Assembly: GCA_020849855.1 (NCBI GenBank)
Contig: JADZFO010000038.1
Location: 108,010-172,009 of the forward strand
Source of the DNA: a bacterium
GTDB taxonomy: Bacteria; 4484-113; JAFGCY01
Direction of reading: 5' to 3'
DNA length: 64,000 nucleotides
A program made the position numbers and the translations under genes. Each line of letters begins with the position of its first letter. Position 1 is the first letter of the stretch. Below the pieces are notes generated by a model. The model did no database searches and was not told the DNA's origin. It saw only the letters and a program-made list of their open reading frames with translations. Below are positions 169-61,534 of the stretch, piece after piece.

Positions 169-1035
169 CTAGAAGGGGTCAAGCTGGGAGGCATGGCGCA
201 GGTTTTCGCCCATCTGCTGCAGCTCGCCGGCGGCGAAGCGGCTGACCAGGGCGCGCAGGCGGCGGCGGCTGGAGGGCCGCGTCTGGGGATCGGCGGCCTC
301 CTTCGCATGGCGCAGGACCTGCTCGACGGTCTGCAGCGGGCCGCTTAGCGTCAGGCCCGCGCCGCGCAGACGGCGCTGCTCATGGGCCAGGCTGACCTCG
401 CGCAGCAGATCGGCATGCAGGCGCAGCACGCCTTGTGGTCCCTGCAGGCGCTCCAGCCACTGGCCCTCCTCAGCGCTCAGGGGCCAGGGCGCCAGGCCGC
501 GGTCCAGCTCGTCCTCCAGCGCGGTGTTCTGGCTCAGCGGGCCGGCCAGCTGCCACTGCGGCTCCTCGGGGCGCGGCTGGTCGAGGCCGCAAAGCTCCTC
601 GATGCCGCGCTGCAGGCCGAACCACTGCTGCACCAGGCCGCTGTTGAACTCCGCCAGGCTCTGGCCGGCGGCGGCGATGCGCTGGCTGCGCCCCTGCTCC
701 GGGCTGAGACCGGCACGGGCGTCGGCGACGGCCTCGTCGAAGCTTGGCAGGTCCGGCACGATCTGGCGCGGGCGGGCGGTCACGGCGCGATTGGCCTCGC
801 TGAAGGCGCGGCTGGCCGGGTCGCCGCGGCCAAAAGTGAGGTTGAAGAAGCTGCCACTCTGGGGCGCGCCGCCCTCGCCGGCGGGGCCAAAGCCGCTGAG
901 CCCGCGGGCGCGGCTGTAGACCGCCGCTGCGCCGCCCGCCAGCAGGATCAGGATGCGCCACCAGAGGAAACCGGCGTCGCTGGTGCCCTCGTCGGCGGAG
1001 GACTGCAGCCAGATTAGCAGCAGGCTGAGGTTCAT
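169..1035 (-). CDS. hypothetical membrane-anchored protein (N-terminal TM helix, Pro/Gly-rich linker, conserved C-terminal ...L(D/R)PF domain); paralog of 1083..2108
   Basis: 288-aa ORF; hydrophobic N-terminus (LLLIWL.., ILILLAGGAAAV). C-terminal ~70 aa alignable with next gene (GPL..VL..A..RxRLRxxVxxFxxxELxxMxxNLxxAxxLDPF vs ..DRPF). No recognisable catalytic motif. Confidence 0.45.
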   Translation of the reverse strand: MNLSLLLIWLQSSADEGTSDAGFLWWRILILLAGGAAAVYSRARGLSGFGPAGEGGAPQSGSFFNLTFGRGDPASRAFSEANRAVTARPRQIVPDLPSFDEAVADARAGLSPEQGRSQRIAAAGQSLAEFNSGLVQQWFGLQRGIEELCGLDQPRPEEPQWQLAGPLSQNTALEDELDRGLAPWPLSAEEGQWLERLQGPQGVLRLHADLLREVSLAHEQRRLRGAGLTLSGPLQTVEQVLRHAKEAADPQTRPSSRRRLRALVSRFAAGELQQMGENLRHASQLDPF

Positions 1036-1082
1036 GCTGATGCAGAGGATACCGCTTTTCCGGGCCGCCGCAAGGGCCGTTT

Positions 1083-15682: not shown

Positions 15683-15688
15683 ATAATC
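15683..15688 (+). promoter_or_regulatory. -10 hexamer TATAAT 8 nt upstream of the purN ATG (putative leaderless transcript)
   Basis: CCCTATAATCCCTGCGCCATGG; no SD possible in 8 nt. The pattern recurs at many genes in the window. Confidence 0.4.
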
Positions 15689-15696
15689 CCTGCGCC

Positions 15697-16413
15697 ATGG
15701 ACAGCGTCCACCCCAGCCTGCGCATCGCCGCCCTGATCAGCGGCAGCGGCTCCACCCTGCTGAACATCCTGCAGCGCATCGCGGACGGCCGCCTGCGCGG
15801 CGTGGAGGTTTGCGGCGTGGCGGCCAGCCGGGACTGCCCGGGCCTGGAGCATGCCCGCGCCTTTGGCATCCCCTGGGTGATTGTGCCGCGCACAGCGCCG
15901 CCGGCCGAGGCCCTGCAGCCGGCGGAGGCCAGCGCCTTCACGGCCGCTTTTGACGCCGCCGAGTTCTCAGAGCGCCTGAGCGCCGAGCTGGACCGCTGGC
16001 AGCCGCAGCTGGTGGTCTGCGCCGGCTTCCTGAGCCTTTACCTGCCTGCGCCGCAGTACCGCCACAAAGTGCTGAACGTGCACCCCGCGCTGTTGCCGGC
16101 CTTCGGCGGGCCGGGGATGTATGGGCAGCGTGTCCACGAAGCCGTGCTGGCGAGCGGGGCAAAGGTCAGCGGCTGCACGGTGCACCTGACGGACGAGCAC
16201 TATGACTCCGGGCCGATCATCGCCCAGCGCACTGTGGCCGTCCTGCCGGATGACACGCCGGAGACGCTGTCAGCGCGGGTGCAGGCAGCGGAGAGGGAGC
16301 TGTACCCCCTGGTGCTGCAGGGCTTTGCCGACGGGCGCATCCGCATCAGTGCGGAGGGCGCGGTGGAGCTGGACCCGCGGGTGCTGACGCAGGAGCCGGG
16401 TGGCGCGGGCTGA
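15697..16413 (+). CDS. purN: phosphoribosylglycinamide formyltransferase
   Basis: 238 aa; N-terminal AALISGSGSTL (GSGSNL-type), HPALLPAFGG (NIHPSLLP-type catalytic His region), and a C-terminal D...L fold typical of PurN. Confidence 0.8.
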   Translation: MDSVHPSLRIAALISGSGSTLLNILQRIADGRLRGVEVCGVAASRDCPGLEHARAFGIPWVIVPRTAPPAEALQPAEASAFTAAFDAAEFSERLSAELDRWQPQLVVCAGFLSLYLPAPQYRHKVLNVHPALLPAFGGPGMYGQRVHEAVLASGAKVSGCTVHLTDEHYDSGPIIAQRTVAVLPDDTPETLSARVQAAERELYPLVLQGFADGRIRISAEGAVELDPRVLTQEPGGAG

Positions 16414-16917: not shown

Positions 16918-17523
16918 CTACTCATCCAGCAGGGCCGGGTCCAGGATCTCGGCCAGGCGCAGCTTGCCCCGGCGGATATGGGTCCGCACGGTGTTCAGGT
17001 TGAGCTGCATGGCCTCGGCAATCTCTTCATAGCTCAGTTCTTCAAAGTAATACAGGCACAGCGCCACCCGCTGCAGCTCCGGCAGGCGCTTCAGCGCGCG
17101 GCCCAGATCGGTGTTCTGGGCGTGGCCGGCGCTGGCCGACTGGCGCAGGTCCTGGGGCTGGACGCCCACTTCGGCCTGCTCCTCAATGCTCGCGCTGCCC
17201 GGGCGGCTGGCCTTGCGCTTGAGGTGCTGGCGGGCCACATTTATGGCAATGCGGTAGATCCAGCTAGAAAGCTTGGCCTCTCCGCGGAAGCCGCCAAGGC
17301 CCTTATAAGCATTGACAAAGGTCAGCTGGGCCAGGTCCTCGACATCGCTTGCTTCAACGCCCTGGGCGGAGATCACGCCGGCGACCAGGCTGGAGTAGCT
17401 GTCCACAATGCGGGCGAACAAATGGCTCTCGCCGGCGGCAATCCGCCGGCACAAGGCAAGCTCGTCTGTGCCCGTCTCCACTTTTGGCGCCATCCCCAGC
17501 CAGGTGTTGATCCGTGTGAGCAT
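16918..17523 (-). CDS. ECF-type RNA polymerase sigma factor (sigma-70 regions 2 and 4)
   Basis: 201 aa; LAQLTFVNAYKGLGGFRGEAKLSSWIYRIAINVARQHL (region 2) and LPELQRVALCLYYFEELSYEEIAEAMQLNLNTVRTHIRRGKLRL (region 4 HTH). Confidence 0.85.
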   Translation of the reverse strand: MLTRINTWLGMAPKVETGTDELALCRRIAAGESHLFARIVDSYSSLVAGVISAQGVEASDVEDLAQLTFVNAYKGLGGFRGEAKLSSWIYRIAINVARQHLKRKASRPGSASIEEQAEVGVQPQDLRQSASAGHAQNTDLGRALKRLPELQRVALCLYYFEELSYEEIAEAMQLNLNTVRTHIRRGKLRLAEILDPALLDE

Positions 17524-17639
17524 TGTCGCACTTTAAGAGCATTGCCGGCGCGCCTGAGTTTCAGCGCCCGGGGAAAACTTCAGGCGGCGCGGAATCCATC
17601 GTTACAATGTTGGCAGGCTGATGCATCACGGGGGATAGC

Positions 17640-19855: not shown

Positions 19856-20425
19856 CTACTTCTCCAGCAGCCACTCCGCCAGGGCGCTGAGCTCGTTGTC
19901 CGGGAAGCGCTGCGGCGGCATGGGCACGCTGTACTTACCCTTGTTGGCGCTCAGGCGCGGGTCGTTGGCGGCATAGCCGGCGGGGTCCTTGAAGTAGGCC
20001 ACCAACTTGGGCACGTCCCAGTTGGCCTTCAGGTCGCGCAGGGGCGGCCCCAGGGGCGTGCCGTTCTGGTCCTGGCCGTGGCACATGCCGCAGTTGCCGC
20101 TCTTGTAAAGCTCTTCCGCGGTCAGCATGGTGCGCGGCGCTTCCATTTCGTCCTTGGTGCTGTCGGGGCCGGCCTGCGGCACCTTGTCGCCGGAGGCGTC
20201 CGCAGCTTCCTGCTGCTCCATCGGCGTGTCAGGCGTTTCACCCGCAGCGGCAGGGCTGTCGGTAGCGGCGGCTCCACTGGCAGCAGTGCTGTCAGCGCTG
20301 CCCGCAGCGCCGGCCGGCGTCTGGCCCTCATCCTGCGCCTGCTGCTTGGGGCAGGCTGTGCAAAGCAGGGCGATAAACAGCAGGCCCAGGAAGGCCAGGC
20401 GGCGCTGATCTGAAGAACTGAACAT
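19856..20425 (-). CDS. c-type cytochrome (single CxxCH), lipoprotein
   Basis: Heme motif CGMCHG. Lipobox LLCTAC. Start trimmed from 20503 to ATG 20425 (MFSSSDQRRLAFLGLLFIALLCTAC) because TTATAAT lies 8 nt upstream on the coding strand. Confidence 0.7.
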   Translation of the reverse strand: MFSSSDQRRLAFLGLLFIALLCTACPKQQAQDEGQTPAGAAGSADSTAASGAAATDSPAAAGETPDTPMEQQEAADASGDKVPQAGPDSTKDEMEAPRTMLTAEELYKSGNCGMCHGQDQNGTPLGPPLRDLKANWDVPKLVAYFKDPAGYAANDPRLSANKGKYSVPMPPQRFPDNELSALAEWLLEK

Positions 20426-20509
20426 GGCTGGGATTATAACCATCGCCAGCAGGACGCGCCGGGGCCGTCCGCTCTTCAGCAGTCTCAGCTCTGGCGGCGG
20501 CATGCGGGC

Positions 20510-21715
20510 CTAGAGATCAGCGGGCAGATCTGCGGCCAGGCGCAGGGCCGCTGCGGGATACCAGGCGCCAAAGCGGCCCTTGCGGATCTTCCTGCGGGCC
20601 TGGCGCATCAGGTCGTAATAGAACTGCAGGTTGTGCAGCGTAGCGAAACGGGCGTAGCTGTGCTCCTGCAGCTTGAGCAGGTGCCGCAGGTAGGCCCGGC
20701 TGTGCCCGGCGCAGGTGGGACAGGCGCAGCGCGGATCGACGGGGCGGGCATCGTCCCTGAAGCGCGCGTTGTTCATCCGCAGCAGGCCCTGGCGGGTGTA
20801 GAGCACTCCATGGCGGGCCATGCGCGTGGGCTGCACGCAGTCGAACATGTCAAAGCCGGCGGCGATCGCATGCAGCAGGTCTGCCGGGTTGCCCACGCCC
20901 ATCAGATAACGCACTTTGTCCGCGGGCAACAGAGGGCCGCAGAAGGCCGTCAGGCGCAGGAAGTCCTCGCGCGGCTCGCCGACGGCCAGACCGCCCACAG
21001 CCAGGGCATCGAAACCCTGAGCGGCGACAAACTGGGCGCTCTCGCGCCGCAGGTCCTCTTCCAGGCCGCCCTGCACGATGCCGAACAGCGCGGGAGGATG
21101 GACGCGGGATGAGGCATGGGCTGCCTTCCTGCCGCGTTCACCCTTGCGCGCCGCCGCTTGCTGCCGCGCCAGCAGCTCCGGCCAGAGCTGGGCCTGTTCC
21201 CGGGCCCAGGAATGGGTCAGGGCCATGTCCTTCGCGGTGCGCTCGCGGGTGGCCGGCAGGCCGGTGCAGATGTCCAGGGGCATGGCGAAGTCGACGCCGA
21301 AGCAGAGCTGGGCCCGCAGCACGAATTCCGGGCTGAAGTGCCAGCGCTGGCCGCCGATATGGTCGCTGAAGCGCACCCCGTCCGGGCGGATGCTGCGCCG
21401 CGCGGCGAGGCTGTAGACCTGGTAGCCGCCTGAGTCGGTCAGCACAGAGCCGGCCCAGCCGGAAAAGGGCTTGATCCCGCCGAAGCCGGCGATGCTCTCC
21501 AGGCCGGGGCGGACCACCAGGTGGTAGGTGTTCATAAGCACATGGCGGTAGCCGATGCGCCGCAGGTCCTGCCAGTCCAGGGTTTTGAGGCTGGCGGCGG
21601 TGGCCACGGGCTGGAAGAGCGGAGTGGGCAGGCGCCGGCCGTCCATGCTGCGCAGCCAGCCGCTCCGGGCCTGGGTGGCCGGGTCGCGCGCCTGCAGTTT
21701 CCATACGCCGGGCAA
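20510..21715 (-). CDS. tgt: queuine tRNA-ribosyltransferase (tRNA-guanine transglycosylase)
   Basis: 401 aa; DSGGYQ, LFGIVQGG, YLMGVGNPADL, FDCVQPTRMARHG and the zinc site CACPTCAGH (CxCxxC...H) are all present. Confidence 0.9.
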   Translation of the reverse strand: MPGVWKLQARDPATQARSGWLRSMDGRRLPTPLFQPVATAASLKTLDWQDLRRIGYRHVLMNTYHLVVRPGLESIAGFGGIKPFSGWAGSVLTDSGGYQVYSLAARRSIRPDGVRFSDHIGGQRWHFSPEFVLRAQLCFGVDFAMPLDICTGLPATRERTAKDMALTHSWAREQAQLWPELLARQQAAARKGERGRKAAHASSRVHPPALFGIVQGGLEEDLRRESAQFVAAQGFDALAVGGLAVGEPREDFLRLTAFCGPLLPADKVRYLMGVGNPADLLHAIAAGFDMFDCVQPTRMARHGVLYTRQGLLRMNNARFRDDARPVDPRCACPTCAGHSRAYLRHLLKLQEHSYARFATLHNLQFYYDLMRQARRKIRKGRFGAWYPAAALRLAADLPADL

Positions 21716-21930
21716 GGGGCGCTATTCTAAGCTTTGCGCCGCAGACAGTGCGGGGAACTGAGCAGCCCGAAGGCTGGTCAGTTCAAGACCGGTGAAATCG
21801 CCGCCAGAGCAAAACCTTTTGCCCGGCTTTTTCGTCTGAACAGTGGGTATCAGTTATTGCCGGGCTGATGCGGCGAAGCAGTAGCCACACTGGTGTGGTA
21901 GTAAGACTGTCTCGCCGAGGGGGTTAACAG

Positions 21931-25993: not shown

Positions 25994-26350
25994 CTAGAGC
26001 CCCAGGCTCTTTCGAGAAGCCTGCACAAGTCTCTCTATCAGCTCCTCCGGAAGAGGCTTGGCAGGACTGAAGGTGATCCCGGTCTTGGTGGCCTTGAAGC
26101 CGGCGGCGGCGATCTCTTCGCTAAGTGAAGCGATGGCTTCCGGGCTGAGATAGATGCCGCACTGCTTGCTGAAGGCCGCATAGCCAGCAATGGTCTTGCC
26201 GGAGATGGCGAAGCCCGGCATGTTGTAGGCAATGATCTCCTCGGCGTCAGGCAGAAGATGGCGAAGCCGGCCGCGCAGTTCGCTTAGCGCCTGCCGCAGC
26301 GGCTCCGCCGCCTGAGCGATGTAGTCATCATGAGAGTCAACTTTGTTCAT
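25994..26350 (-). CDS. DUF1801 (YdhG-like) domain protein
   Basis: 118 aa; central ...EEIIAYNMPGFAISGKTIAGYAAFSKQCGIYL.. matches the conserved YNMPGF / I.G..A.KxHxxL core of the DUF1801 family. Confidence 0.6.
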   Translation of the reverse strand: MNKVDSHDDYIAQAAEPLRQALSELRGRLRHLLPDAEEIIAYNMPGFAISGKTIAGYAAFSKQCGIYLSPEAIASLSEEIAAAGFKATKTGITFSPAKPLPEELIERLVQASRKSLGL

Positions 26351-26439
26351 GCCGGGGCGATGGTAGCACGCCCGGCCGCATGTCTCTGTCAGGAATCAGC
26401 GGCGCGCTAGGCAGGTTGCCTGTGCCCAGCACGGAGATT

Positions 26440-35568: not shown

Positions 35569-35668
35569 GGGTTATGAGCTTCACTTGCACATACAATGAA
35601 GCATGGATACAGGCCCGGCGCAGGGGACACATGAACAGGCCGCGCAGCAGCTTGAGCAGCTGCTGGCC
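35569..35668. repeat. direct repeat copy B (intact promoter and 5' end of the TPR gene)
   Basis: See copy A. Contains TACAAT 5 nt upstream of the ATG at 35603. Confidence 0.8.
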
Positions 35669-36277: not shown

Positions 36278-38047
36278 CTAATGCGCCTGAACATGCGCAT
36301 GCTCTTCTTCCTGCGCGTGCTCGTCTTCGTGCCCATGCTCTTCTTCATGCCCATGCTCGTCTTCATGCTCGTGCCCATGCCCATGAGCGTGATCATGCTC
36401 GTGCTCTTCCTCGCTGTGGCCCGGCACCTCAAAGCTGGCGTCACCGGCGGGATGGTGGTGGCCGCCGATGCTCCAGTCGATGCCCAGCCAGAGGCTGCCA
36501 ACCCTGCGGCCCAGGTGCTGGGCGTCGTCGTGGTTGTACTGCAGGCGCACCCGCGTCGCCTCGCTGGGGTACCAGGCCAGCAGCGGGCTGATGCGGCTGC
36601 GCTCGTCGCGCAGGGGGTCGTGCTCGCTGCCGCCCACGCTTTCGCCGCTGCTGCCGGCAAACTCATAGCGCAGGCCGGCGGCCCACTGCGGGCGGAAGCC
36701 GTAGAGCAGCTGGCTGTAGGCCGCGCTGTCACGCAGGCTCAGAGCCGGCAGGTCTATCGGGTTTGCCAGGTCGCTGTCATCCTGCAGGGCCGCAGCATCA
36801 TAGCTGCGCAGGGCGTACTCGCTTTCCCAGAGCACAAAGGGCCATTCGCCCGGACAGGGCTGGTAGAGATAGCTCAGGTCCGCGCCATAGATGCTGGTTC
36901 GGCTGCCGGCACCGCTGCCATTGGGCCCCCACATGCCAGACAGGCCCAGGCGCCAGCGCGAGCTCTCCGACTGCCAGGTGTTCTCCCAGCGCAGTGTGGC
37001 GAGCAGGGCGGCTGAATCGTCCAGCTGCGGGCGCAGGCCCGGGCCGAGGCTTTCATAGCGCTCTTCCAGCAGCAGCAGCAGCGGGTCTTCCTCCTCTTCC
37101 TCCCCGCCGTGCTCCTCTTCCTCGCCATGGCTGTGGCCGGCGCCGCGGAAGCTGACCATGCTCTCGTCGGCGGCATTCTGCACACCGATGACCAGGCGGC
37201 TTTGCCAGTCTTCGTCCTCGTCCCAGTCCTCGCCGCTGTTCTTGTTCCAGGCCAGGGCCACACCACCGGCGCGGCCGCCTTCGGAGCCGAAGAAGCGGCT
37301 GACCAGCAGCTGCTGGTCCATCCAGCTCCAGCTGTGCGGGTGGCGCGCATTGTGCAGGCCGAAATCTGTATAGAACTGGCCGGCCTTCAGCTCGAAGCCG
37401 CGCCCGAGCTGGCTGAGCAGGTAGGCCTCCTCCAGCTCGGCGCCTTCCTCCCCAAAGCTGATGTTCAGCTGGCCGCGGGCGCGCGCTGTGACCCAGCCGC
37501 CGAGGCTGAGCTCGGCAATCGGCGTGCTGAAACCCTGGGCGCGCGGGTCATGGTGGCCGGCCTGCAGAGCTTCCAGCTCGGCGTCCTCCGCATCGCTGAA
37601 GCCCAGGTAGGACATCACGTTCAGGCCCAGCTCCAGCGGCAGGTCGTGGAAGTGCTCATGCCATGTGGCCGGCGGCTCGCAGTGCGTGGCCTCTGCCTGC
37701 TGCGGTGCCAGGGCGACCTCGACGCTGTCGCCGGCATGCGCCTCATGCGCCGCATGCCCTTCATGCCCGGCACCTTCAGCATGCTCATGCTCAGCATGTC
37801 CTGCTTGCTCTGCATGCCCGGCATTCTCGGCATGGGCCTGACCCGCTTCATGCTGGTGCCCGGCCTCATGCTCATCCTCAGCCGCAGCCGCGGTGAAGAG
37901 AGCGCTGCCCGGTACCACGCCCAGGGTCAGAACTAGGATCAGGCCCAGGAGCAGGCACAGCAGTCCATAGGCCCTGCTTGCCTTGACAAGGCCCGGAAAA
38001 CTACGCGGCTGGCAGCGCGGGCGAAAGGTGATGCACGGATTGCTCAT
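36278..38047 (-). CDS. His-rich metal-binding protein, probable outer-membrane/porin-like, predicted Zur/Fur-regulated
   Basis: 589 aa; signal peptide; N-terminal (HEAGHQHEAGQAHAENAGHAEQAGHAEHEHAEGAGHEGHAAHEAH) and C-terminal (HSEEEHEHDHAHGHGHEHEDEHGHEEEHGHEDEH) His/Glu-rich blocks. Middle region has alternating-polarity beta-strand-like stretches. Start codon abuts a Fur-box palindrome. Divergent from a Fur-family gene. Confidence 0.5.
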   Translation of the reverse strand: MSNPCITFRPRCQPRSFPGLVKASRAYGLLCLLLGLILVLTLGVVPGSALFTAAAAEDEHEAGHQHEAGQAHAENAGHAEQAGHAEHEHAEGAGHEGHAAHEAHAGDSVEVALAPQQAEATHCEPPATWHEHFHDLPLELGLNVMSYLGFSDAEDAELEALQAGHHDPRAQGFSTPIAELSLGGWVTARARGQLNISFGEEGAELEEAYLLSQLGRGFELKAGQFYTDFGLHNARHPHSWSWMDQQLLVSRFFGSEGGRAGGVALAWNKNSGEDWDEDEDWQSRLVIGVQNAADESMVSFRGAGHSHGEEEEHGGEEEEEDPLLLLLEERYESLGPGLRPQLDDSAALLATLRWENTWQSESSRWRLGLSGMWGPNGSGAGSRTSIYGADLSYLYQPCPGEWPFVLWESEYALRSYDAAALQDDSDLANPIDLPALSLRDSAAYSQLLYGFRPQWAAGLRYEFAGSSGESVGGSEHDPLRDERSRISPLLAWYPSEATRVRLQYNHDDAQHLGRRVGSLWLGIDWSIGGHHHPAGDASFEVPGHSEEEHEHDHAHGHGHEHEDEHGHEEEHGHEDEHAQEEEHAHVQAH

Positions 38048-38077
38048 GATAATGATAATAGCTTCTCATTATCATGA
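38044..38077. promoter_or_regulatory. Fur/Zur-box-like operator: perfect 12-bp inverted repeat TCATGATAATGA-N10-TCATTATCATGA (contains GATAATGATAAT)
   Basis: AT-rich palindrome in GC-rich DNA, at the 5' end of the His-rich protein gene and 250 bp upstream of the fur-family gene. Matches the classic Fur-box GATAATGATAATCATTATC. Confidence 0.6.
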
Positions 38078-38331
38078 TCGTCAAGCGATCTTAAGCGTGC
38101 AGACATATCAAACTGTTTGAGACAAAGGAACCTGCCGGCAGCGTCTTCAGGGCGTCTCACGGGCAGCACTGACACGGAACGGATCCTGCAGGGCCGCTGC
38201 CCTGCGGGTCCTTTTTTGAATTCATCCAGCACAGTAGAGACTGCAATCATGCTGGCGGCCCTGACCTGCTGGCTTAGTAAGCGGCTCTGCTGTCTGCAAG
38301 CCGCGCGGCGCAGCCCCGGTATAATCGGCCT

Positions 38332-38712
38332 GTGATGCAGCGCAACACCCGCCAGCGCGAGGTGATCCGCCGCGCCTTCGAGCGCGCGGCGCGGCCCCTG
38401 TCGCCGCAGCAGCTTCTGGCCCTGGCGCAGCAGGAGATGCCCAGCCTGGGCCTGGCGACGGTCTACCGCAGCCTCAAGGCCCTGAGCGAGGAAGGCTGGC
38501 TCACCACCGTGGAGCTGCCCGGCTCGATCCAGCACTATGAGATCGCCGGCCAGGCGCACCACCACCACTTCCACTGCCGGGCCTGCGACGGCGTGTTCGA
38601 GGTCCATGGCTGCCCGCCGCGGATCGACCAGCTCACCCCGCGGGGCTTCAAGCTGGAACAGCATGAGATCGTGCTCTACGGCCTCTGCGCCGACTGCAGC
38701 CGGGCCGCCTGA
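38332..38712 (+). CDS. zur: Fur-family metalloregulator (Zur-like)
   Basis: 126 aa; DNA-binding helix region LATVYRSLKAL (TVYRTL motif); metal sites HHHHFHC..CG and C-terminal C..C. TATAAT at 38320-38325 lies 6 nt upstream of the GTG at 38332 (9 nt from the in-frame ATG at 38335). Confidence 0.8.
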   Translation: MMQRNTRQREVIRRAFERAARPLSPQQLLALAQQEMPSLGLATVYRSLKALSEEGWLTTVELPGSIQHYEIAGQAHHHHFHCRACDGVFEVHGCPPRIDQLTPRGFKLEQHEIVLYGLCADCSRAA

Positions 38713-39870: not shown

Positions 39871-39976
39871 CAGGCGCGCCAAAGCACCTGTCATGCGTGT
39901 AGTTTTCCCCGCTTAGCCGCCGCCCGGCGGAAATTTTCCAGGCTTTTCGTTACCGCTGCACTGGTAAACTGTCTGC

Positions 39977-40633
39977 ATGGGCGTGGGTTCATCCAGCCAG
40001 TACCGCCACGAGGGCCGCGAGGAGCAGGCAATGCCTGCTGGCGCGCCTCTGGATGCGCGGGCTGAGGATGGGCGGCGGCAGCAGTTCCTTGACCTGCTGA
40101 TGCCGTTTTATCCACAGGCGCTGGCCTACGCCCAGTCCATTACGGGCAGCCTGATGGACGGCGAAGACCTGGTCAGCGACGCAGTGCTGCGGGCCTATGA
40201 AGGGCTTGACACCCTCAAGGACCGCGGAAAGTTCAAGGAATGGTTCTTTTCGATCCTCCTGAACCGTTTCCGAAACCTGCGCAGCAGATCCCTGCTGCGG
40301 CCACTGACGCTGGTAGCCGATTTTGCCGGACCATCAGTTCTAAGGGAAGCCACGACCCGTGTAAGCGGTGATCCTGCAGAACTCGGCTACCAGCTCACCC
40401 TGGTCAAGGAACTCCTGGCCAGGCTCCAGCCTCGGGAACGCGACATCCTGCTTCTGCTCGGCCCCGCCGGCTTTTCCGTTGACGAAGTTGCTTCCATCCA
40501 GCGCGTCTCCAAGCGCGCAGTGATCCAGTGCGCCTACCGCGCCCGCCGCAAGCTGGCCCGCGCGCTGCCTGCCGACGCCCTGCCCTTTGCCTTTGGCGCT
40601 GAGGCCGCGGAGATTGAAGGAGGGCAGCAGTAA
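39977..40633 (+). CDS. ECF-type sigma factor
   Basis: 218 aa; region-2-like DLVSDAVLRAYEGLDTLKDRGKFKEWFFSILLNRFRNL and region-4 HTH LQPRERDILLLLGPAGFSVDEVASIQRVSKRAVIQCAYRARRKL. Confidence 0.7.
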   Translation: MGVGSSSQYRHEGREEQAMPAGAPLDARAEDGRRQQFLDLLMPFYPQALAYAQSITGSLMDGEDLVSDAVLRAYEGLDTLKDRGKFKEWFFSILLNRFRNLRSRSLLRPLTLVADFAGPSVLREATTRVSGDPAELGYQLTLVKELLARLQPRERDILLLLGPAGFSVDEVASIQRVSKRAVIQCAYRARRKLARALPADALPFAFGAEAAEIEGGQQ

Positions 40634-41349: not shown

Positions 41350-41397
41350 GCTGTCGCTTTCCGAACCACAGGCCAAACCTATAATGCAGGCGGACGG

Positions 41398-41886
41398 ATG
41401 TGGTTCCATTCAAGATATAGCCTGACTAAGCCTCGAGCAATCATTCAGAGTCTGCTGGCCCTTGCCTTAATTGGGACTGTCGCCGCAGCCATTCTGTGGC
41501 ACTACAACACTTTACTAAAACGTGACTATCCGATTCGGAATCTGGAGACCCTTGGCTCAATCTTGGAGTTTACCTACGAGGGGCCTTTCCCACTGAAGTC
41601 CATTCACCTGGTTCGACTTGATCAGGACCTGGGACCAGGCTTCAGCAATAAAATCAGTACGATTGATGACAACGTTGAGTTCGAAGGACTGGATGGGTGT
41701 GAGATTGTCTTCTCAGTGTTGGATCCGGAGCCAGTTGGAAAACGTGTTCCGTTTCCCCGAATCCTGTCGAACTCAATGGAATACGATTACAGAATTCCCG
41801 CAGCACCCTCAAGCCCTGCCGGGTTCACGTACCTGTTCATTCAACGGAACTCGTGGCAGGTCAACTGCTTCAAACTTACAGATTGA
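41398..41886 (+). CDS. hypothetical protein in a low-GC islet
   Basis: 162 aa; local G+C visibly lower (about 48%) than flanks. N-terminal TM helix. TATAAT 12 nt upstream of the ATG. Confidence 0.4.
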   Translation: MWFHSRYSLTKPRAIIQSLLALALIGTVAAAILWHYNTLLKRDYPIRNLETLGSILEFTYEGPFPLKSIHLVRLDQDLGPGFSNKISTIDDNVEFEGLDGCEIVFSVLDPEPVGKRVPFPRILSNSMEYDYRIPAAPSSPAGFTYLFIQRNSWQVNCFKLTD

Positions 41887-42068
41887 CTGACAACACAGCG
41901 CACATTGCAGCAAAACACAGCGCACCTTTTGCAAACCGAACTCGCATGCGAAAGCCGATTTCTACTTGAGGCGAGCTGCTCTATCTTGAGCTCTGCGGCT
42001 CCTTGGCTCCGGTGAACCGTGAGAAGGGCGGCGACTGCGCGCCGCCCCAACAGGGATAATGCATCTGC

Positions 42069-43382
42069 GTGCTACTCGCCGTTTACAACGCGCTGATCAG
42101 CGTGCTCTGGCCGCTGCTCTACCTTTACCCGCCCTTTCGGGGCACGATCCGCGCGCGCCTGGGGCACTTTGAGCTGGGCAGCTATGACCCCGCCGCGCCG
42201 GGGCTCAAAGTGCTGGTCAACGCAGTATCCGCCGGCGAGGTTGTCGCGATCAGCTCCTTTATCCGCGAGCTGAAGCGCCGGCGGCCGGACTGCCAGGTGG
42301 TCCTGCTGACCACCACCGACAGCGGGCAGGAGATGGCGCGGCAGAAGCTGGCCGATGCTGTGTCCCTGGCCTGTTATTTCCCCCTCGCCGACCTGCCCTT
42401 TGTGGTCAAGCGCTACCTGGATAAGCTGCGGCCGGAGCTTTACATCTCCTGCGAGTCCGAGCTGTGGCCCAACATCCAGAGCCAGTGCCGGCGGCGCGGG
42501 ATACCGGTGGCCCTGGTCAACGCGCGCCTGTACCTGCATAACAAGACCGGCCTGCGCGGCGCTGTCGTGCGCGGCCTGTATCAGCTTTGCGACCTGATTG
42601 TCTGCCAGGACGAAGACCAGCGCGGGAACTTCCTGAAGTTCGGCCTGCCGGATCAGGTGCTTGCCGTGAGCGGCAACACCAAGTTCGACTTCGAGGTTGA
42701 GGCCTGGGACGAGTGGCGCCTGGCCCAGTGGCGCGAGCTTTTCGCACTGGACCCGCAGCAGCCGGTGCTGGTGGCCGGCTCGACCCACCCCGGGGAGGAA
42801 GCGCTGATCTTCAGCGCCGTGCAGGAGCTGCGCGGCCGCGGAATGCATCTGCAGCTTGTCCTGGCGCCGCGGCACATTGAGCGCATCAGCGAGGTGCAGC
42901 AGAGCGCGCTGCAGGCCGGCTTCCGCCCGCGCCTGCTGAGCCAGCTGCAGGCGCCGGAGGAACACCACGCCAGCCTTGGGGCGCACCACCGCCACGACCT
43001 GGTGCTGGTGGACAGATACGGCGTGCTGCTGGACTGCTACCGCCTGGCGGATCTGGTGCTCATGGGCGGCACCTTCCATCCGAAGGTGGGCGGGCACAAC
43101 ATCCTGGAGGCGACGATCCTGGGCAAGCCGGTGCTGGCCGGGCCGCATGTCTACAGCATCCTGGCCCAGACAGCGATGCTGGAGCGCGCCGAGGCCCTGC
43201 TGCGCGCGGACTGCGACATCTCCAGCGCCGACGGCCCGGCCGCGCTGGCTTCCGCGCTGCAGACCCCGCTGCAGCATCCGGCCCGCAGCGCGGAGCTAGG
43301 GGAGCGCGCGCGCAAGCTGACCCTGGCCAACCAGGGCTCGGCAAAGCGCGCGGTGGACGCAGTGCTGAAGCTGATCCGCTAG
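42069..43382 (+). CDS. waaA: 3-deoxy-D-manno-octulosonic acid (Kdo) transferase
   Basis: 437 aa; LKVLVNAVSAGEVVAISSFIREL (WIHAVSVGE-type motif), CESELWPNI (ETELWPN motif), C-terminal GGTFHPKVGGHNILEATILGKPVLAGPHVYS (glycosyltransferase GT30 C-domain). GTG start with GATAAT 8 nt upstream. Confidence 0.85.
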   Translation: MLLAVYNALISVLWPLLYLYPPFRGTIRARLGHFELGSYDPAAPGLKVLVNAVSAGEVVAISSFIRELKRRRPDCQVVLLTTTDSGQEMARQKLADAVSLACYFPLADLPFVVKRYLDKLRPELYISCESELWPNIQSQCRRRGIPVALVNARLYLHNKTGLRGAVVRGLYQLCDLIVCQDEDQRGNFLKFGLPDQVLAVSGNTKFDFEVEAWDEWRLAQWRELFALDPQQPVLVAGSTHPGEEALIFSAVQELRGRGMHLQLVLAPRHIERISEVQQSALQAGFRPRLLSQLQAPEEHHASLGAHHRHDLVLVDRYGVLLDCYRLADLVLMGGTFHPKVGGHNILEATILGKPVLAGPHVYSILAQTAMLERAEALLRADCDISSADGPAALASALQTPLQHPARSAELGERARKLTLANQGSAKRAVDAVLKLIR

Positions 43383-45217: not shown

Positions 45218-45843
45218 CTAGCGGATCTCCGGCTCGCCGTCGATCTCGACCCAGACATTGATCTGGCCGAAGTCCTGCTTGAGGGTGTCGACGGCATAGT
45301 CCAGCAGCGCGTCGATGCCGCTTTCCGGCAGGCCGAGCATGTAGCGCCGCATGGGCTCGTGGTAGAGCTGGCCTTCATAAACCCAGGCGCCCTGCGCATC
45401 AGAGCGGGTGAAGCCGCCGGCCAGTTCGCACAGGCGCTTCTCCAGGGCATCCAGCTGGGCGGCCGGGATCGGCTCGCCGCTGTTGAAGTTCACGGGGCAG
45501 TGGAAGACGAAAGTGTGCAGCTCCGGGCTGCTGTCAGCCGGCAGCGGCTGCGCCTGTGTTGTCTCGACCACCAGGGCCGCGCCCTCGGCCTCGATCGCAG
45601 CGCTGCTGCTGGCGCCAATGGCGATGCCGCCGCCGCCGGCCTCGATCATGTCGGCATAGGGGCCGAGATAGAAGCCGTACTGGGCCAGCACCTTGAGCAC
45701 GGCATCAGCATCGATGGAGGCGCTGGCCGCCGCCGCGGTGTTGTCGCAGCACTCATCACAGCAGCATTCGTGGGCGCGCGCCAGCACAGGCGCGCTGAGC
45801 ATCAGGGTCGCAAAGACAGCCAGCAGGCTGATGGTGATACGCA
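45218..45843 (-). CDS. secreted hypothetical protein with N-terminal HECCCDECCD cysteine cluster
   Basis: Start at ATG 45843 (MRITISLLAVFATLMLSAPVLA signal peptide), then HECCCDECCDNT. ORF track 45218..45955. CTACCAT -10-like hexamer just upstream of the ATG. Confidence 0.45.
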
Positions 45844-45891
45844 TGCGGGGATGGTAGCACGGTAGGCTGCACGCGTGCCTGCACCTCTGGG

Positions 45892-46341: not shown

Positions 46342-46505
46342 GTCAGTTTATTCGGCTCTGCGTAACTCTGCGCCCTCTGCGTCTCTGCGTTTGGATCGGA
46401 ACGCAGCATTCGTGCGAGCTGTAACGGATAGAAGAATGCCGGCTAAAGCCGGCGCTCCGACAGGAAGGGGAAGGTGCAGGCACGCATGCATCCTACAATA
46501 ATGCG

Positions 46506-48836
<2,331 letters not shown>

Positions 48837-49335: not shown

Positions 49336-49383
49336 TGTACTGACCTGACGGATCCACCAGTCGGCTCAGGACTGCTACACTGA

Positions 49384-50289
49384 TTGCAGATGCAACAGGA
49401 GCGCAGAGCCGGGCAATTGCAGGCCGATGGACTACTTCCAGAGCTGGAGTCAGTCGCGCTTAACACCTCTACCGACTCGCAGCCGGCTGAAGGCGGCCTG
49501 GGCGACGACTTGCTGGCCAGAATTGAAGTCCGACTGGGGCGGAAGCTGGCCCCCACTGAGCGAGCAATCCTCGCGCGCCCACCTGCCAAAGAGCCCAGTC
49601 TTTCCTTCCTGGCTTACCAGATCCTCGGCGAGCTGCGCCATCGGCGCGAGAAGCTGCTGCTGCCGCTCAGCAGCGTGCTTACAAACGATCTCACGGCAAG
49701 CGGCATGGAAATGCGTTCGCGCCCCTGGGCCGAAATCCTGCTGGGTCTGTGGCCGGTGCCTTTTATTGTTTCTGATTACGCAGGCGGCGGCCAGCCCAGC
49801 CTGCTGCTGCCAGGGCTGCTGGTGCTGGGCGTCGTGCAGACGGTCCTGGTGCTGGCCAGTGAGCTGCGTCTCAAGAAGAAGGTCGATGCGGGCCTGCGGG
49901 ACATCAGCCTGATCATGCGCGCGATTGAAGCTGACCCGGGGCTGCTGGAGATCCGCGAGCACGTGCCGCCACCCTGGAGCTGGCTTTTCTTTAGCGGGAA
50001 GTACAGGAGCCTGAAGGATTATGTCGCCCTGCTAAGCGCCAACCTGGACTGGTATCTGGGCCCGCCGCGGATGCTGCTGCGCTGGAGCTGGATCACGGGC
50101 CCGCTGGGCGCGGCGGCACTGGCCAGCGCAGTGTGGTTCTGGGGCCTCGGCCCCGGCGGCGCGCCAGGCGTAAACACCATGGCAGTCGCAATGGCGGGCT
50201 TTTACCTGCTGGTATATGCCTTGCGGCATGAGTCATCGCGCCGGGCCTACTTTATCGACAAGCTGATTGAAGTGCTGCGGACCCCCTGA
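49384..50289 (+). CDS. hypothetical polytopic membrane protein
   Basis: 301 aa; several TM helices (LLGLWPVPFIVSDY, LLLPGLLVLGVVQTVLVLA, WSWITGPLGAAALASAVWFWGL, AVAMAGFYLLVYAL). Confidence 0.4.
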   Translation: MQMQQERRAGQLQADGLLPELESVALNTSTDSQPAEGGLGDDLLARIEVRLGRKLAPTERAILARPPAKEPSLSFLAYQILGELRHRREKLLLPLSSVLTNDLTASGMEMRSRPWAEILLGLWPVPFIVSDYAGGGQPSLLLPGLLVLGVVQTVLVLASELRLKKKVDAGLRDISLIMRAIEADPGLLEIREHVPPPWSWLFFSGKYRSLKDYVALLSANLDWYLGPPRMLLRWSWITGPLGAAALASAVWFWGLGPGGAPGVNTMAVAMAGFYLLVYALRHESSRRAYFIDKLIEVLRTP

Positions 50290-52718: not shown

Positions 52719-52877
52719 AACGTCCCCCGAAACTCGGAGACATTATATCTGCGCAGACTTTGGCCCTGCGGCAGCGGCATAGTGATTTAACCTGATTTTA
52801 GGCCTGCCAGAACCGCCGTCAGCACACATCAATTCAGTGCTCGCCCTGATGCCGCAGCAGCAGTGCTATAACGGGAA

Positions 52878-53930
52878 ATGCGCTACGGAATACGTCCTGA
52901 CAACCTGCCTGAGCATTTGGCGCTTCTCGCAAAGCAGGTGCCGCTGCCAGTCGTGGACACGCTGCTGGCACTGCTGCAGGCGCGTGGAATCATGGCCGCG
53001 GTGAAGCTGGGACTCTTTGAAGCCATGCGCGAGGAGCGCAGCCACAGCGCCGCCGAGCTGGCCGGCCGGATGGGCTGCGACGCGCCCTGCCTGGAATTGC
53101 TTCTGCGCCAGCTTGTGTCCTCTGGGTACATGGAGCGCCGCCCGGGCGGCTTCAGCCTCAGCGCGGCGGCGCGGCGCTGGCTGCTTCGCGGCAGCCAGTT
53201 TGACCTCAGCGCATCCGTGCTGTTCTGCTTCCACGAACTGCGCATGCTGGACTCGCTGGAAGAGCTGATCCGCAGCGGCCGCGGCCTGGACTTCCATTCC
53301 AGTCTTGAGGACCCCGAAGTCTGGCAGGTCTACCAGCGCAGCATGTTTGAGCTGGCGCGCGGGGAAGCCCCGCATCTGGCCGGCCTGGTGCAGCTGGCGC
53401 CGGGTGCCCGGCTGCTGCTGGACATCGCCGGCAGCCACGGCTATCTGGGGGCGGAGCTGTGCCGGCGCAACCCGCCCCTGAAGAGCATCGTGCTGGACCT
53501 GCCGGCGGCGCTGCCGCATGCGCGGGCGCTGGCGCAGGAGGCCGGGATCACGGATGTCGTGGAGCACCGCGAAGGCAATATGCTGGCGGGCGAGTTCCCC
53601 GGCCCGGCAGACGCAGTGCTGCTGAGCAACATCCTGCATCACTTCAGCGAGGCGCAGATCATCGACATCCTGAAACGCGGCCTGCGCGCCCTGAACCCCG
53701 GCGGCAGCCTGCTGATCTGGGATGCCGAGCGGCGCGCCGACAACGCCCGGCCGGACATCGCCGGCGATGCCCTGGCGCTGTGGTTCCGCCTGACCAGCGA
53801 GAGCCAGGTCTATGAAGACAAGGACTACGTGCGCTTCATGAAAGCGGCAGGCTTCAGCAGGGTCAAGGTCAAGCGCAGTATTCTGTCGCCAGTGATGGTC
53901 TGCGTCCAGGGGCAGAAGGCTCAGGGTTGA
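52878..53930 (+). CDS. class I SAM-dependent O-methyltransferase (N-terminal dimerisation/winged-helix domain plus Methyltransf_2-type catalytic domain)
   Basis: 350 aa; LLDIAGSHGYLGAEL (SAM motif I, VDVGGG.G-like), IVLDLP...(DLP motif), NILHHFSE (motif typical of plant/bacterial OMTs, NxLH.W.D-like). TATAAC 7 nt upstream of the ATG. Confidence 0.75.
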   Translation: MRYGIRPDNLPEHLALLAKQVPLPVVDTLLALLQARGIMAAVKLGLFEAMREERSHSAAELAGRMGCDAPCLELLLRQLVSSGYMERRPGGFSLSAAARRWLLRGSQFDLSASVLFCFHELRMLDSLEELIRSGRGLDFHSSLEDPEVWQVYQRSMFELARGEAPHLAGLVQLAPGARLLLDIAGSHGYLGAELCRRNPPLKSIVLDLPAALPHARALAQEAGITDVVEHREGNMLAGEFPGPADAVLLSNILHHFSEAQIIDILKRGLRALNPGGSLLIWDAERRADNARPDIAGDALALWFRLTSESQVYEDKDYVRFMKAAGFSRVKVKRSILSPVMVCVQGQKAQG

Positions 53931-58179: not shown

Positions 58180-58302
58180 TCTAGGCTCTGCCTTCGCTCG
58201 TCAGATCCTGGCCCGGACGCTCCATCAAAAGCTGCATAAAGGTGAAACTATGAACGCTGGCCGCTGCTCTTAGCCCGGTTTGCCCAAGCCATGGAGGTTG
58301 AA

Positions 58303-60210: not shown

Positions 60211-60307
60211 GGCGTGAAGCTGCGCAGCAGCAGGCTTCGCCAGCGATGGCACCAGCCCAGGCGGCCCGTGTAATGCGGGCCGCCGCTGCGCTGTATCATC
60301 CCCTGCT

Positions 60308-61507: not shown

Positions 61508-61534
61508 TTGCCACCCCTTCCTTCCGCCTCAGGC

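What the first reader, a model, noticed from the sequence alone, without database searches (positions are those of the whole stretch)
15683..15699. Recurrent TAnnnT hexamer 5-9 nt upstream of start codons: widespread leaderless transcription
Examples read directly: purN (TATAAT, 8 nt, ATG 15697); cytochrome c (TTATAAT, 8 nt, ATG at 20425, minus); zur (TATAAT, 6 nt to GTG 38332 / 9 nt to the in-frame ATG 38335); TPR gene (TACAAT, 5 nt, ATG 35603); hypothetical 41398 (TATAAT, 12 nt); waaA (GATAAT, 8 nt, GTG 42069); 45843 gene and DUF1801 gene (CTACCAT, 7-9 nt, minus); aacS (TACAAT, 6 nt, ATG 46506); O-methyltransferase (TATAAC, 7 nt, ATG 52878); 60308 ORF (TATCAT, 8 nt, GTG); hicB (TATACT, 6 nt, ATG 61286). 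None of these has room for a Shine-Dalgarno sequence, whereas internal operon genes (MNT, GH lipoprotein, flavin reductase) do show GGAGG-type SDs. This implies a large fraction of monocistronic or first genes are leaderless, which is useful for start-codon annotation in this organism.
Basis: seen in the sequence. Interest (0 to 1): 0.55.

Follow-up and report, generated by a model that had tools for sequence, protein, structure and literature searches.

The report
Promoter boxes abutting start codons
About a third of the genes in this stretch of an uncultured bacterium's chromosome have a promoter "-10 box" only 5-10 bases before the start codon, so they are probably made as leaderless mRNAs; this way of expressing genes is well known from Deinococcus and actinobacteria and is simply seen here in a new lineage.

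Summary
With gene starts chosen mechanically, 12-14 of 53 genes have TANNNT 4-10 nt before the start codon. Upstream control windows give about 2, dinucleotide shuffles 2-3 (0 of 2000 reach the observed count), and the same pipeline gives 6% in unrelated high-GC contigs. The unselected middle positions spell TATAAT. TG extended -10s are enriched and there is no -35. The hexamers never coincide with a Shine-Dalgarno sequence (17 versus 17 genes, no overlap) and sit almost only before first genes of transcription units. In a relative at about 80% identity, 12 orthologous promoters keep the hexamer (35/36 key positions) and mostly the spacer length, while the 20 nt upstream are only 40% identical. 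So roughly one third of genes are very probably leaderless or have leaders of 1-4 nt. No transcript 5' ends were mapped. The phenomenon and this exact signature are published (Zheng 2011, de Groot 2014, GeneMarkS-2, a 2025 Deinococcus-Thermus study). NCBI's annotation of this MAG already uses 20 of the 21 starts checked. The only news is the lineage, probably GTDB phylum 4484-113.

The parts
15682..15699 (+). purN promoter and start: TATAAT, 9 nt, ATG
   Evidence: Hexamer, spacer and ATG are identical in the relative L084 while the sequence just upstream differs. The Pfam Formyl_trans_N match starts at residue 9. Same start in NCBI protein MCC7478752.1.
1033..1051 (-). Hypothetical gene 169-1035: TATCCT, 10 nt, ATG (weakest case)
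   Evidence: Same start in NCBI. Not covered by a relative's locus.
17521..17535 (-). ECF sigma factor gene: TAAAGT, 6 nt, ATG
   Evidence: The relative has TACAGT with the same spacer and a 17-nt indel just upstream. Same start in NCBI.
20423..20438 (-). Cytochrome c gene: TATAAT, 7 nt, ATG 20425
   Evidence: The relative keeps the hexamer and the spacer length with 3 of 7 spacer bases changed. Upstream indels are not multiples of 3, so the longer ORF from 20503 is not coding. NCBI protein of 189 aa. The relative's gene call is 185 aa.
21713..21729 (-). tgt: TAGAAT, 8 nt, TTG start
   Evidence: An in-frame TAG inside the hexamer and the TGT domain starting at residue 15 leave TTG as the only possible start. 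Hexamer, spacer length and TTG are conserved in L084. NCBI protein of 401 aa is identical.
26348..26365 (-). DUF1801 gene: TGcTACCAT (extended -10), 9 nt, ATG
   Evidence: Same start in NCBI.
35592..35605 (+). TPR protein gene: TACAAT, 5 nt, ATG
   Evidence: Same start in NCBI.
38045..38084 (-). Gene 36278-38047: TTGACG, 18 nt, TATTAT, 7 nt, ATG, overlapped by a Fur-box-like palindrome
   Evidence: The only promoter here with a good -35. Inverted repeat 38044-38058 / 38063-38077 contains GATAATGATAAT. Same start in NCBI.
38320..38337 (+). zur (FUR family): TATAAT, 6 nt to GTG 38332 or 9 nt to ATG 38335
   Evidence: The relative keeps TATAAT with a spacer one base shorter. NCBI uses the ATG (125 aa).
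39965..39979 (+). Second ECF sigma gene: TGgTAAACT (extended -10), 6 nt, ATG
   Evidence: Identical in the relative. Same start in NCBI.
42055..42071 (+). waaA (Kdo transferase): GATAAT, 8 nt, GTG. Near-consensus, not TAnnnT
   Evidence: Hexamer and spacer length conserved in L001. Same start in NCBI.
45842..45856 (-). Hypothetical gene 45218-45844: TGcTACCAT, 6 nt, ATG
   Evidence: The relative has TACTAT with the same spacer, and 26 nt of indels lie just upstream. Same start in NCBI.
46494..46508 (+). aacS (acetoacetyl-CoA synthetase-like): TACAAT, 6 nt, ATG
   Evidence: In the relative the hexamer is identical and all 6 spacer bases differ while the length is kept. This exact protein was not found in the NCBI-derived collection.
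49376..49392 (+). Hypothetical gene 49390-50289: TGcTACACT, 8 nt, ATG
   Evidence: Same start in NCBI. No alignable upstream region in the relative.
52867..52880 (+). O-methyltransferase gene: TGcTATAAC, 5 nt, ATG
   Evidence: The relative has TGcTATAAG with spacer 6, and the changes after the ATG fall mostly at third codon positions. Same start in NCBI.
57227..57244 (-). Ser/Thr kinase-TPR gene: TATAAT, 9 nt, TTG 57229 (uncertain)
   Evidence: NCBI uses this TTG. However, the whole 60 nt upstream are nearly identical in the relative, whose gene is called longer at 1100 aa. The hexamer may therefore lie in coding or otherwise constrained sequence.
58168..58183 (-). lipB-like gene: TAGAAT, 7 nt, GTG
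   Evidence: The relative has TAAGAT, a 7-nt spacer of different sequence, and GTG. The window's alternative ATG at 58179 is absent there. Same start in NCBI.
60294..60310 (+). DUF6920 gene: TATCAT, 8 nt, GTG
   Evidence: Identical in the relative L088, with divergence further upstream. Same start in NCBI.
61274..61288 (+). hicB antitoxin gene: TATACT, 6 nt, ATG
   Evidence: Same start in NCBI. The gene is absent from the relative.
63850..63864 (-). Hypothetical gene 63052-63852: TATACT, 6 nt, GTG
   Evidence: Same start in NCBI.
41380..41400 (+). TATAAT, 12 nt, ATG of the doubtful ORF 41398-41886
   Evidence: Coding score 2.2 and GC3 0.55. The ORF is absent from the relative, which has 70 bp where the window has 700 bp. 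It is annotated as hypothetical by NCBI.

Best explanation
The hexamers are -10 elements (consensus TATAAT, often with a TG extension and without a recognisable -35) of housekeeping sigma-70-type promoters placed so that transcription starts at, or 1-4 nt before, the start codon. The resulting mRNAs have no Shine-Dalgarno sequence and would be translated by the leaderless route, with a 70S ribosome or initiator tRNA binding a 5'-terminal AUG or GUG. About one third of all genes in the window use this arrangement (17 strict plus 2 near-consensus of 55), or roughly 40-45% of first genes of transcription units. Operon-internal genes and the remaining first genes use GGAGG-type Shine-Dalgarno sequences.

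What is shown: the motif, its position, its exclusivity with SD, its conservation, and the start-codon assignments. What is inferred: that transcription really starts there, and that the mRNAs are translated without a leader.
For: 1. Position-specific enrichment with motif-blind starts. 12-14 of 53 genes against about 2-3 expected, and 0 of 2000 shuffles reach this. TAnnnT has the highest enrichment ratio of the 64 XYnnnZ patterns, and the next (GGnnnA) is the SD sequence.

2. The positions not used in the search are T 11/20, A 15/20 and A 14/20 (p = 8e-4, 3e-7, 3e-6), which gives TATAAT. TG at -15/-14 occurs in 5/20 (p = 0.006), all at the weaker hexamers.

3. The spacer has its mode at 6 and a range of 5-10. 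This is the distance from a -10 box to +1.

4. No overlap with SD: 17 genes with the hexamer, 17 with SD, 0 with both (Fisher p = 4.7e-4). 16 of 41 non-internal genes against 1 of 14 internal genes.

5. Footprint in a relative at about 80% identity, over 12 promoter pairs. Key positions are 35/36 identical and middle positions 32/36. The spacer is 76% identical, the 20 nt upstream 40% and the coding sequence 76%. Spacer length is kept in 10/12. For aacS and lipB the spacer sequence has changed but its length has not.

6. Starts are pinned. tgt has an in-frame TAG two codons upstream. The zur, purN and lipB Pfam domains begin at residues 4-12. NCBI's annotation has the same start for 20 of 21.

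7. The same pipeline gives 6% in unrelated high-GC contigs.

8. Other members of the clade, with gene calls made by others, show it too. L089 has 6/18, five of them with spacer exactly 6, including tgt. Pooled, the distant members give 15/86.

9. The same signature has been tied to mapped leaderless TSSs in D. deserti (PMC4007540). It has been validated by mutation in D. radiodurans (PMC12340547).
Against: - There is no transcript 5'-end or ribosome data for this organism or any relative.
- No -35 element supports promoter identity, except at 38047.
- 6-7 of the 19 starts are GTG or TTG. In E. coli and Haloferax leaderless translation needs AUG, and in D. deserti TTG never occurs at a 0-nt leader (PMC4007540).
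- Spacers of 8-10 nt (purN, tgt, DUF1801, 1035, waaA, DUF6920, 49390) predict short leaders, not strictly leaderless mRNAs.
- The sample is 55 genes from one 64-kb window. The relative's loci are syntenic, so they are not independent counts.
- NCBI's gene finder may itself use the -10 signal, so its agreement is not fully independent.
Confidence: 0.8

Rival explanations
1. The hexamers are real -10 promoter elements, but the genes are mainly expressed from other, upstream promoters as leadered, SD-less mRNAs. The start-proximal promoters would be minor or conditional.
For: Several of these genes lie in long intergenic regions of 200-700 nt that could hold further promoters. TTG and GTG starts (tgt, STK, waaA, lipB, 60308, 63852) are poor leaderless starts in model organisms (PMC4007540).
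Against: Sequence upstream of the hexamer is essentially unconserved in the relative (40% identity with frequent indels), whereas the hexamer is 97% conserved at its key positions. No SD or other conserved upstream signal is present. purN has only 29 nt between the preceding stop codon and its ATG.
Confidence: 0.1
2. The A/T-rich hexamer acts in the mRNA, not the DNA. It would be an unstructured, S1-binding translational enhancer or non-SD ribosome-binding motif about 12 nt before the start codon, as proposed for SD-poor phyla.
For: Nakagawa et al. 2017 (PMC5397173) note that AT-rich bias at -20 to -10 cannot always be told apart from RPS1 sites. The motif replaces SD at a similar distance.
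Against: The information lies at positions 1, 2 and 6 (T, A, T). The consensus is TATAAT rather than general A/U richness. There is an upstream TG extension and G/C-rich flanks. The motif is absent before operon-internal genes, which would also need such a signal (1/14). In the relative, substitutions keep TAnnnT (TAAAGT to TACAGT, TACCAT to TACTAT, TAGAAT to TAAGAT). Spacing peaks at 6 nt, the -10-to-+1 distance.
Confidence: 0.05
3. It is a chance or compositional artefact. Intergenic DNA is more A/T-rich, and the reader chose start codons to fit the motif.
For: Intergenic TANNNT density is 3.5 times the window average. One example (41398) is probably not a gene.
Against: Starts chosen without reference to the motif give the same result. 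0 of 2000 dinucleotide shuffles and none of five upstream control windows come near it. Unrelated high-GC contigs give 6%. The motif is conserved across species.
Confidence: 0.02

Closest known systems
Leaderless genes of Deinococcus-Thermus with the '-10-motif' TANNNT adjacent to the ORF (de Groot et al. 2014, PMC4007540; Life Sci Alliance 2025, PMC12340547)
   Same: The motif is the same (TANNNT), the genome is also high-GC, and there is the same two-class picture of a -10-motif or GGAG before ORFs. The share of ORFs is similar (about 30% on average in that phylum; 31-35% in this window). ATG predominates, with a GTG minority.
   Different: The lineage is different and unrelated. Here nothing is experimentally mapped. 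The middle positions are more informative here (TATAAT rather than TAnnnT). Two TTG starts occur, a class almost absent in D. deserti (3 of 1174, all with 1-5 nt leaders).
Mycobacterial and actinobacterial leaderless transcripts (Cortes 2013; Shell et al. 2015, PMC4633059) and GeneMarkS-2 'group C' genomes (Lomsadze et al. 2018, PMC6028130)
   Same: A Pribnow box lies 6-8 nt from the start of first genes in operons, the -35 is weak or absent, internal genes use SD, and 25-50% of operons are leaderless.
   Different: Group C was reported mainly for Actinobacteria and Deinococcus-Thermus, and was rare in Proteobacteria and Firmicutes. The main text of that paper does not mention Planctomycetes, the NCBI label under which relatives of this MAG are filed.
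'TA-led' genes of Zheng et al. 2011 (PMC3160421)
   Different: That survey covered 953 cultured-organism genomes available in 2011. It could not include this uncultured candidate lineage.

Membership tests
Bacterial leaderless genes with a start-proximal -10 box (TA-led / GeneMarkS-2 group C type) | A -10-like TANNNT signal is enriched at a fixed short distance (first T about 11-16 nt) upstream of translation starts | tested here: met
   12-14 of 53 motif-blind starts against 2-3 expected. 0 of 2000 shuffles reach this. 6% in unrelated high-GC contigs.
Bacterial leaderless genes with a start-proximal -10 box (TA-led / GeneMarkS-2 group C type) | These genes lack a Shine-Dalgarno sequence, while other genes of the genome have one | tested here: met
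   17 genes with the hexamer and 17 with SD, none with both (Fisher p = 4.7e-4). 8 of 14 internal genes have SD.
Bacterial leaderless genes with a start-proximal -10 box (TA-led / GeneMarkS-2 group C type) | The signal is restricted to first genes of transcription units | tested here: met
   16/41 non-internal against 1/14 internal (p = 0.04). The one 'internal' case, purN, follows the nuo operon after a 29-nt gap.
Bacterial leaderless genes with a start-proximal -10 box (TA-led / GeneMarkS-2 group C type) | The transcription start site coincides with, or lies no more than 5 nt before, the start codon | not testable with these tools
   This needs dRNA-seq, Cappable-seq or 5'-RACE. None exists for this uncultured organism.
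Bacterial leaderless genes with a start-proximal -10 box (TA-led / GeneMarkS-2 group C type) | The protein is translated from the 5'-terminal start codon | not testable with these tools
   Only indirect support is available. Starts are pinned by in-frame stops and domain N-termini, and they agree with the NCBI annotation.
Sigma-70 housekeeping promoter | A -10 hexamer with invariant A at position 2 and T at position 6, and consensus TATAAT | tested here: met
   Position counts. The middle positions, not used in the search, are significantly T, A, A.
Sigma-70 housekeeping promoter | A -35 hexamer TTGACA 16-19 nt upstream | tested here: not met
   The mean best match is 2.8 of 6 against 2.64 at random positions. 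Only the 38047 promoter has TTGACG at 18 nt. This is usual for high-GC leaderless promoters. TG extended -10s (5/20) partly substitute.
GTDB phylum 4484-113 ('Candidatus Niteriota') | Phylogenetic placement with the 4484_113 genome | tested here: inconclusive
   PilT is 86% identical to 'Planctomycetales bacterium 4484_113' and lies in a tight 81-93% cluster. The nearest genome is labelled 'uncultured Planctomycetales'. Tgt has no named Planctomycetes among its best 120 hits. The phylum name and its genome-size range come from PMC11382960. No marker-gene tree was built.

The most novel reading that the evidence does not exclude
An uncultured candidate phylum (probably GTDB 4484-113) would join Deinococcus-Thermus and Actinobacteria as a lineage in which a third or more of genes are expressed as leaderless mRNAs. 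These would include conserved GUG- and even UUG-initiated ones such as tgt, whose TTG start is pinned and conserved. That would imply that its translation apparatus tolerates non-AUG 5'-terminal starts.
Probability: 0.3. Interest if true: 0.4.

Novelty: new member of a known kind. Interest (0 to 1): 0.25.

Why it matters
The finding confirms that start-proximal -10 boxes can be used to fix gene starts and to delimit transcription units in this uncultured lineage. It also extends the phylogenetic spread of heavy leaderless usage beyond the two classic phyla. It changes no concept. The signature, the inference and the software that exploits it are all published, and the public annotation of this genome already reflects them. 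The one mildly unusual point is the conserved TTG and GTG starts behind such promoters, which would be worth a look if transcript 5' ends are ever mapped.

Tried and rejected
- Rfam scan of the whole window found no RNA family, so no riboswitch leaders bear on the question.
- The metagenome scan with aacS returned only hits of 55% identity or less from other bacteria. They were useless for promoter comparison and were reused as a negative control.
- The look-up of encoding contigs does not hold the window's own genome, so the analysis could not be extended along the 224-kb contig.
- One look-up returned gene calls but no DNA.
- The two-hexamer promoter scan finds only the 38047 promoter, because the others have no -35.
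- A first attempt to anchor orthologous starts by fuzzy matching failed on diverged N-termini. It was replaced by explicit anchors.
- The longer ORF of cytochrome c from 20503 was rejected because of frame-breaking indels in the relative.
- The ATG at 58179 for lipB was rejected because it is absent in the relative.
- The 45892-46341 ORF was rejected as a gene because of indels in the relative and no Pfam match.
- The heptad-like ATCAATC repeats in the nuo intergenic regions are not significant.
Full report
**What the window is.** The window is 64 kb of a bacterial chromosome at 65% G+C. My own codon-bias gene caller finds 53 genes, and Pfam names most of them. They include:
- a nuo operon, purN and two ECF sigma factor genes;
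- an M48 peptidase, a cytochrome c, tgt and metG;
- frr-uppS-cdsA, a FUR-family regulator ('zur') and waaA;
- an acetoacetyl-CoA-synthetase-like gene, an O-methyltransferase, a Ser/Thr kinase with TPR repeats, a lipB-like gene, a GH39 protein, hicB and pilT.

The proteins are identical to NCBI entries MCC7478737-MCC7478794 (locus tags IT575_), from a MAG labelled only '[bacterium]', on a contig of 223,974 bp.

**Checking the observation.**
- At the given coordinates TATAAT occupies 15682-15687, nine bases follow, and the purN ATG is at 15697.
- Two hexamers (GATAAT, TATAAC) do not fit TAnnnT.
- The 41398 ORF is doubtful. Its coding score is 2.2 and its GC3 is 0.55, and the relative has 70 bp where the window has 700 bp.
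STK 57229 is a ninth, less certain one.

**Is it more than chance?**
- I chose starts without looking at the motif, using either the longest ORF or the best coding score. TANNNT then lies 4-10 nt before the start of 12 or 14 of 53 genes.
- Five control windows further upstream average 1.8-2.4 genes. The intergenic density of the motif predicts about 3.
- None of 2000 dinucleotide-preserving shuffles of the upstream 40 nt reaches the observed count (means 3.0 and 2.1).
- Among all 64 patterns of the form XYnnnZ, TAnnnT has the highest enrichment ratio. The next is GGnnnA, which is the Shine-Dalgarno sequence.
- The same pipeline on 28 unrelated high-GC metagenome contigs gives 23 of 383 genes (6%). 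Fisher p against the window is 2e-5.

**What the motif is.**
- I aligned 20 sites on the hexamer. The three positions not used in the search are T 11/20, A 15/20 and A 14/20, against an intergenic A or T frequency of 0.21 (p = 8e-4, 3e-7, 3e-6). The consensus is therefore TATAAT.
- TG sits at -15/-14 in 5 of 20 sites (p = 0.006), all at the weaker hexamers: TACCAT twice, TAAACT, TACACT and TATAAC.
- There is no -35 signal. The mean best match is 2.8 of 6 against 2.64 at random positions. The exception is the 38047 promoter, TTGACG-18-TATTAT.
- The spacer to the start codon has its mode at 6 and ranges from 5 to 10. Six bases is the distance from a -10 box to +1 in sigma-70 promoters (established knowledge).

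**Relation to Shine-Dalgarno sequences and operon position.**
- The curated list has 55 genes. It differs from the mechanical list by three starts corrected from comparative evidence and by the addition of hicB and hicA.
- 17 genes carry the strict hexamer and 17 carry GGAG, GAGG or AGGA 3-12 nt upstream. None carries both (Fisher p = 4.7e-4).
- The hexamer precedes 16 of 41 genes that are not operon-internal, but only 1 of 14 internal genes. That one is purN, 29 nt after the last nuo gene.
- With the two near-consensus cases (waaA, OMT), 19 of 55 genes (35%) have a start-proximal -10 box.
The flavin reductase gene (21931) and the GH39 gene (58303, GGAGG; NCBI start confirmed) are first genes with leaders.

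**Comparative evidence.**
- The nearest genome in the GTDB species set is a MAG (GCA_964512635.1, contig CAZEJB010000009.1) with about 80% identity. Three overlapping loci from it (L001, L084, L088) are syntenic with window 10.5-26 kb and 38-64 kb.
- Twelve promoters have orthologues. Hexamer positions 1, 2 and 6 are identical in 35 of 36 comparisons, and positions 3-5 in 32 of 36.
- The spacer is 76% identical, and its length is the same in 10 of 12 pairs. The first 30 coding bases are 76% identical. The 20 nt upstream of the hexamer are only 40% identical and full of indels.
- Where the hexamer changes it stays TAnnnT: TAAAGT to TACAGT, TACCAT to TACTAT, and TAGAAT to TAAGAT.
- For aacS all six spacer bases differ but the length is kept. 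For lipB the spacer sequence differs, the length of 7 is kept, and the window's alternative ATG at 58179 is missing in the relative.
- This footprint fits a DNA element read by position, not a leader sequence.

**Are the start codons right?**
- For tgt an in-frame TAG lies inside the hexamer, two codons before the TTG, and the TGT domain begins at residue 15. The TTG is therefore the only possible start, and it is conserved in the relative.
- The FUR domain of zur starts at residue 4, Formyl_trans_N of purN at residue 9, and the LplA-B domain of the lipB-like protein at residue 12.
- Exact-sequence look-ups show that the NCBI annotation uses the same start for 20 of the 21 genes asked. These include the TTG of the kinase, the GTGs of waaA, lipB, 60308 and 63852, and the ATG (not the GTG) of zur. 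Only aacS was not found.
- To my knowledge NCBI's pipeline uses GeneMarkS-2+, which models start-proximal Pribnow boxes. This agreement is therefore not wholly independent.

**Lineage.**
- PilT falls in a tight cluster of 81-93% identity that includes 'Planctomycetales bacterium 4484_113' at 86%.
- Tgt has no named Planctomycetes among its best 120 hits. Its closest relatives (58-79%) are unnamed or '[bacterium]'.
- 4484-113 is a GTDB placeholder phylum, proposed as 'Candidatus Niteriota', with 12 genomes of 1.54-4.11 Mb (PMC11382960). One Tgt relative sits on a complete 4,112,261-bp genome, CP060262.1.
- I take the organism to be a member of this phylum or a close neighbour, but I built no tree.

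**Other members of the clade.** These counts use gene calls made by others.

| Locus | Source | G+C | Genes with TANNNT at spacer 4-10 |
|---|---|---|---|
| L089 | CP060262.1 | 62% | 6 of 18 |
| L090 | ENA contig | 62% | 3 of 17 |
| L086 | ENA contig | 60% | 3 of 17 |
| L087 | JGI contig | 57% | 2 of 20 |
| L091 | NCBI contig | 56% | 1 of 14 |

In L089 five of the six have a spacer of exactly 6, and one of them is tgt itself. Pooled, the five loci give 15 of 86, against 6% in unrelated contigs (p = 0.0015). The habit therefore seems clade-wide and strongest in the high-GC members. The samples are small.

**Mechanism.**
These are housekeeping promoters whose -10 box is placed so that RNA polymerase starts at the A or G of the start codon (spacers 5-7) or 1-4 nt before it (spacers 8-10). 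The mRNAs have no ribosome-binding site and are translated by the leaderless route.
- The motif, position, exclusivity with SD, conservation and start assignment are shown. The transcription start and the mode of translation are inferred.
- I put this at 0.8.
- The main rival (0.1) is that the genes are mostly expressed from further upstream. The lack of any conserved upstream sequence argues against it.
- An mRNA-level A/U-rich enhancer (0.05) does not fit the T-A-n-n-n-T information pattern, the TG extension, or the absence of the motif before internal genes.
- Chance is excluded.

**Comparison with what is known.**
- The criterion is exactly that of Zheng et al. 2011: TANNNT about 12 bp upstream of the start means a leaderless gene (PMC3160421).
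- Mapped transcription starts in Deinococcus deserti tie the signature to leaderless mRNAs, which make up 60% of mRNAs there. ATG accounts for 83% of their starts and GTG for 17%, and TTG occurs only with leaders of 1-5 nt (PMC4007540).
- A 2025 study validated the '-10-motif' by mutation in D. radiodurans. It put its frequency at about 30% of ORFs in Deinococcus-Thermus, the highest of the phyla it surveyed (PMC12340547).
- GeneMarkS-2 assigns 1028 of 4769 bacterial genomes to its leaderless 'group C' (PMC6028130).
- The window's 31-35% is at the level of Deinococcus.
- What is new is the lineage, plus a somewhat high share of non-ATG starts (4-5 GTG and 1-2 TTG of 19), all but one with spacers of 6-9.

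**Verdict.** The feature is real, correctly interpreted and ordinary in kind. It is a new member of a well-known class, and existing annotation software already captures it. Interest 0.25.

Noticed in passing
window 38044-38084 (- strand promoter of gene 36278-38047, divergent from zur at 38335): A Fur-box-like palindrome (arms TCATGATAATGATAA / TTCTCATTATCATGA, 93% complementary, containing GATAATGATAAT) covers the -10 box, the predicted transcription start and the ATG of a 589-aa protein with no Pfam match. It sits next to the FUR-family regulator gene. This looks like a metal-regulated leaderless promoter whose operator overlaps the start codon.
   Followed up: partly
window 43399-43472, 45868-45885 (-), 46473-46490 (+): A palindromic repeat GGTGCAGGCnnGCCTGCA gives 8 matches against 0.57 expected. 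Three tandem copies lie after the waaA stop codon. Single copies abut the -10 boxes of the two divergent leaderless promoters (45844 and aacS), where a -35 would be. The relative lacks both promoter copies (indels there). It could be a REP-like element or an operator.
   Followed up: partly
window 8311-8942: An MNT nucleotidyltransferase / HepT toxin-antitoxin pair, with 4-nt overlaps and GGAGG or GAGG Shine-Dalgarno sequences, is inserted inside the nuo operon. It lies between the nuoH-like gene (6500-8314) and the next gene (8939-9958).
   Followed up: no
window 62993-63040 (- strand, upstream of pilT): pilT has a leadered promoter (TGtTAAAAT) followed by a hairpin, CTCCGGCgcccGCCGGAG, whose 3' arm contains the GGAG Shine-Dalgarno sequence. 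The whole leader is conserved in the relative, with changes only in the loop. This suggests a structured 5' UTR that controls translation.
   Followed up: no
window 61286-61741: hicB (61286-61507) precedes a hicA-like ORF (61508 or 61535 to 61741), the reverse of the usual hicA-hicB order. The pair is absent from the relative.
   Followed up: no
window 41350-42068 and 45845-46505: Two long gaps (719 and 661 bp) hold no convincing gene. The annotated ORF 41398-41886 has GC3 0.55 and is missing from the relative. The 45892-46341 ORF is broken by indels in the relative.
   Followed up: partly
L084 10001 (tgt) and 13961 (ECF sigma) in the relative MAG: The gene calls stored for the relative miss the conserved leaderless-type starts. 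tgt is called 37 aa too short from an internal GTG, and the sigma factor 30 aa too long. This illustrates how gene finders that favour Shine-Dalgarno sequences misplace starts in this lineage.
   Followed up: yes
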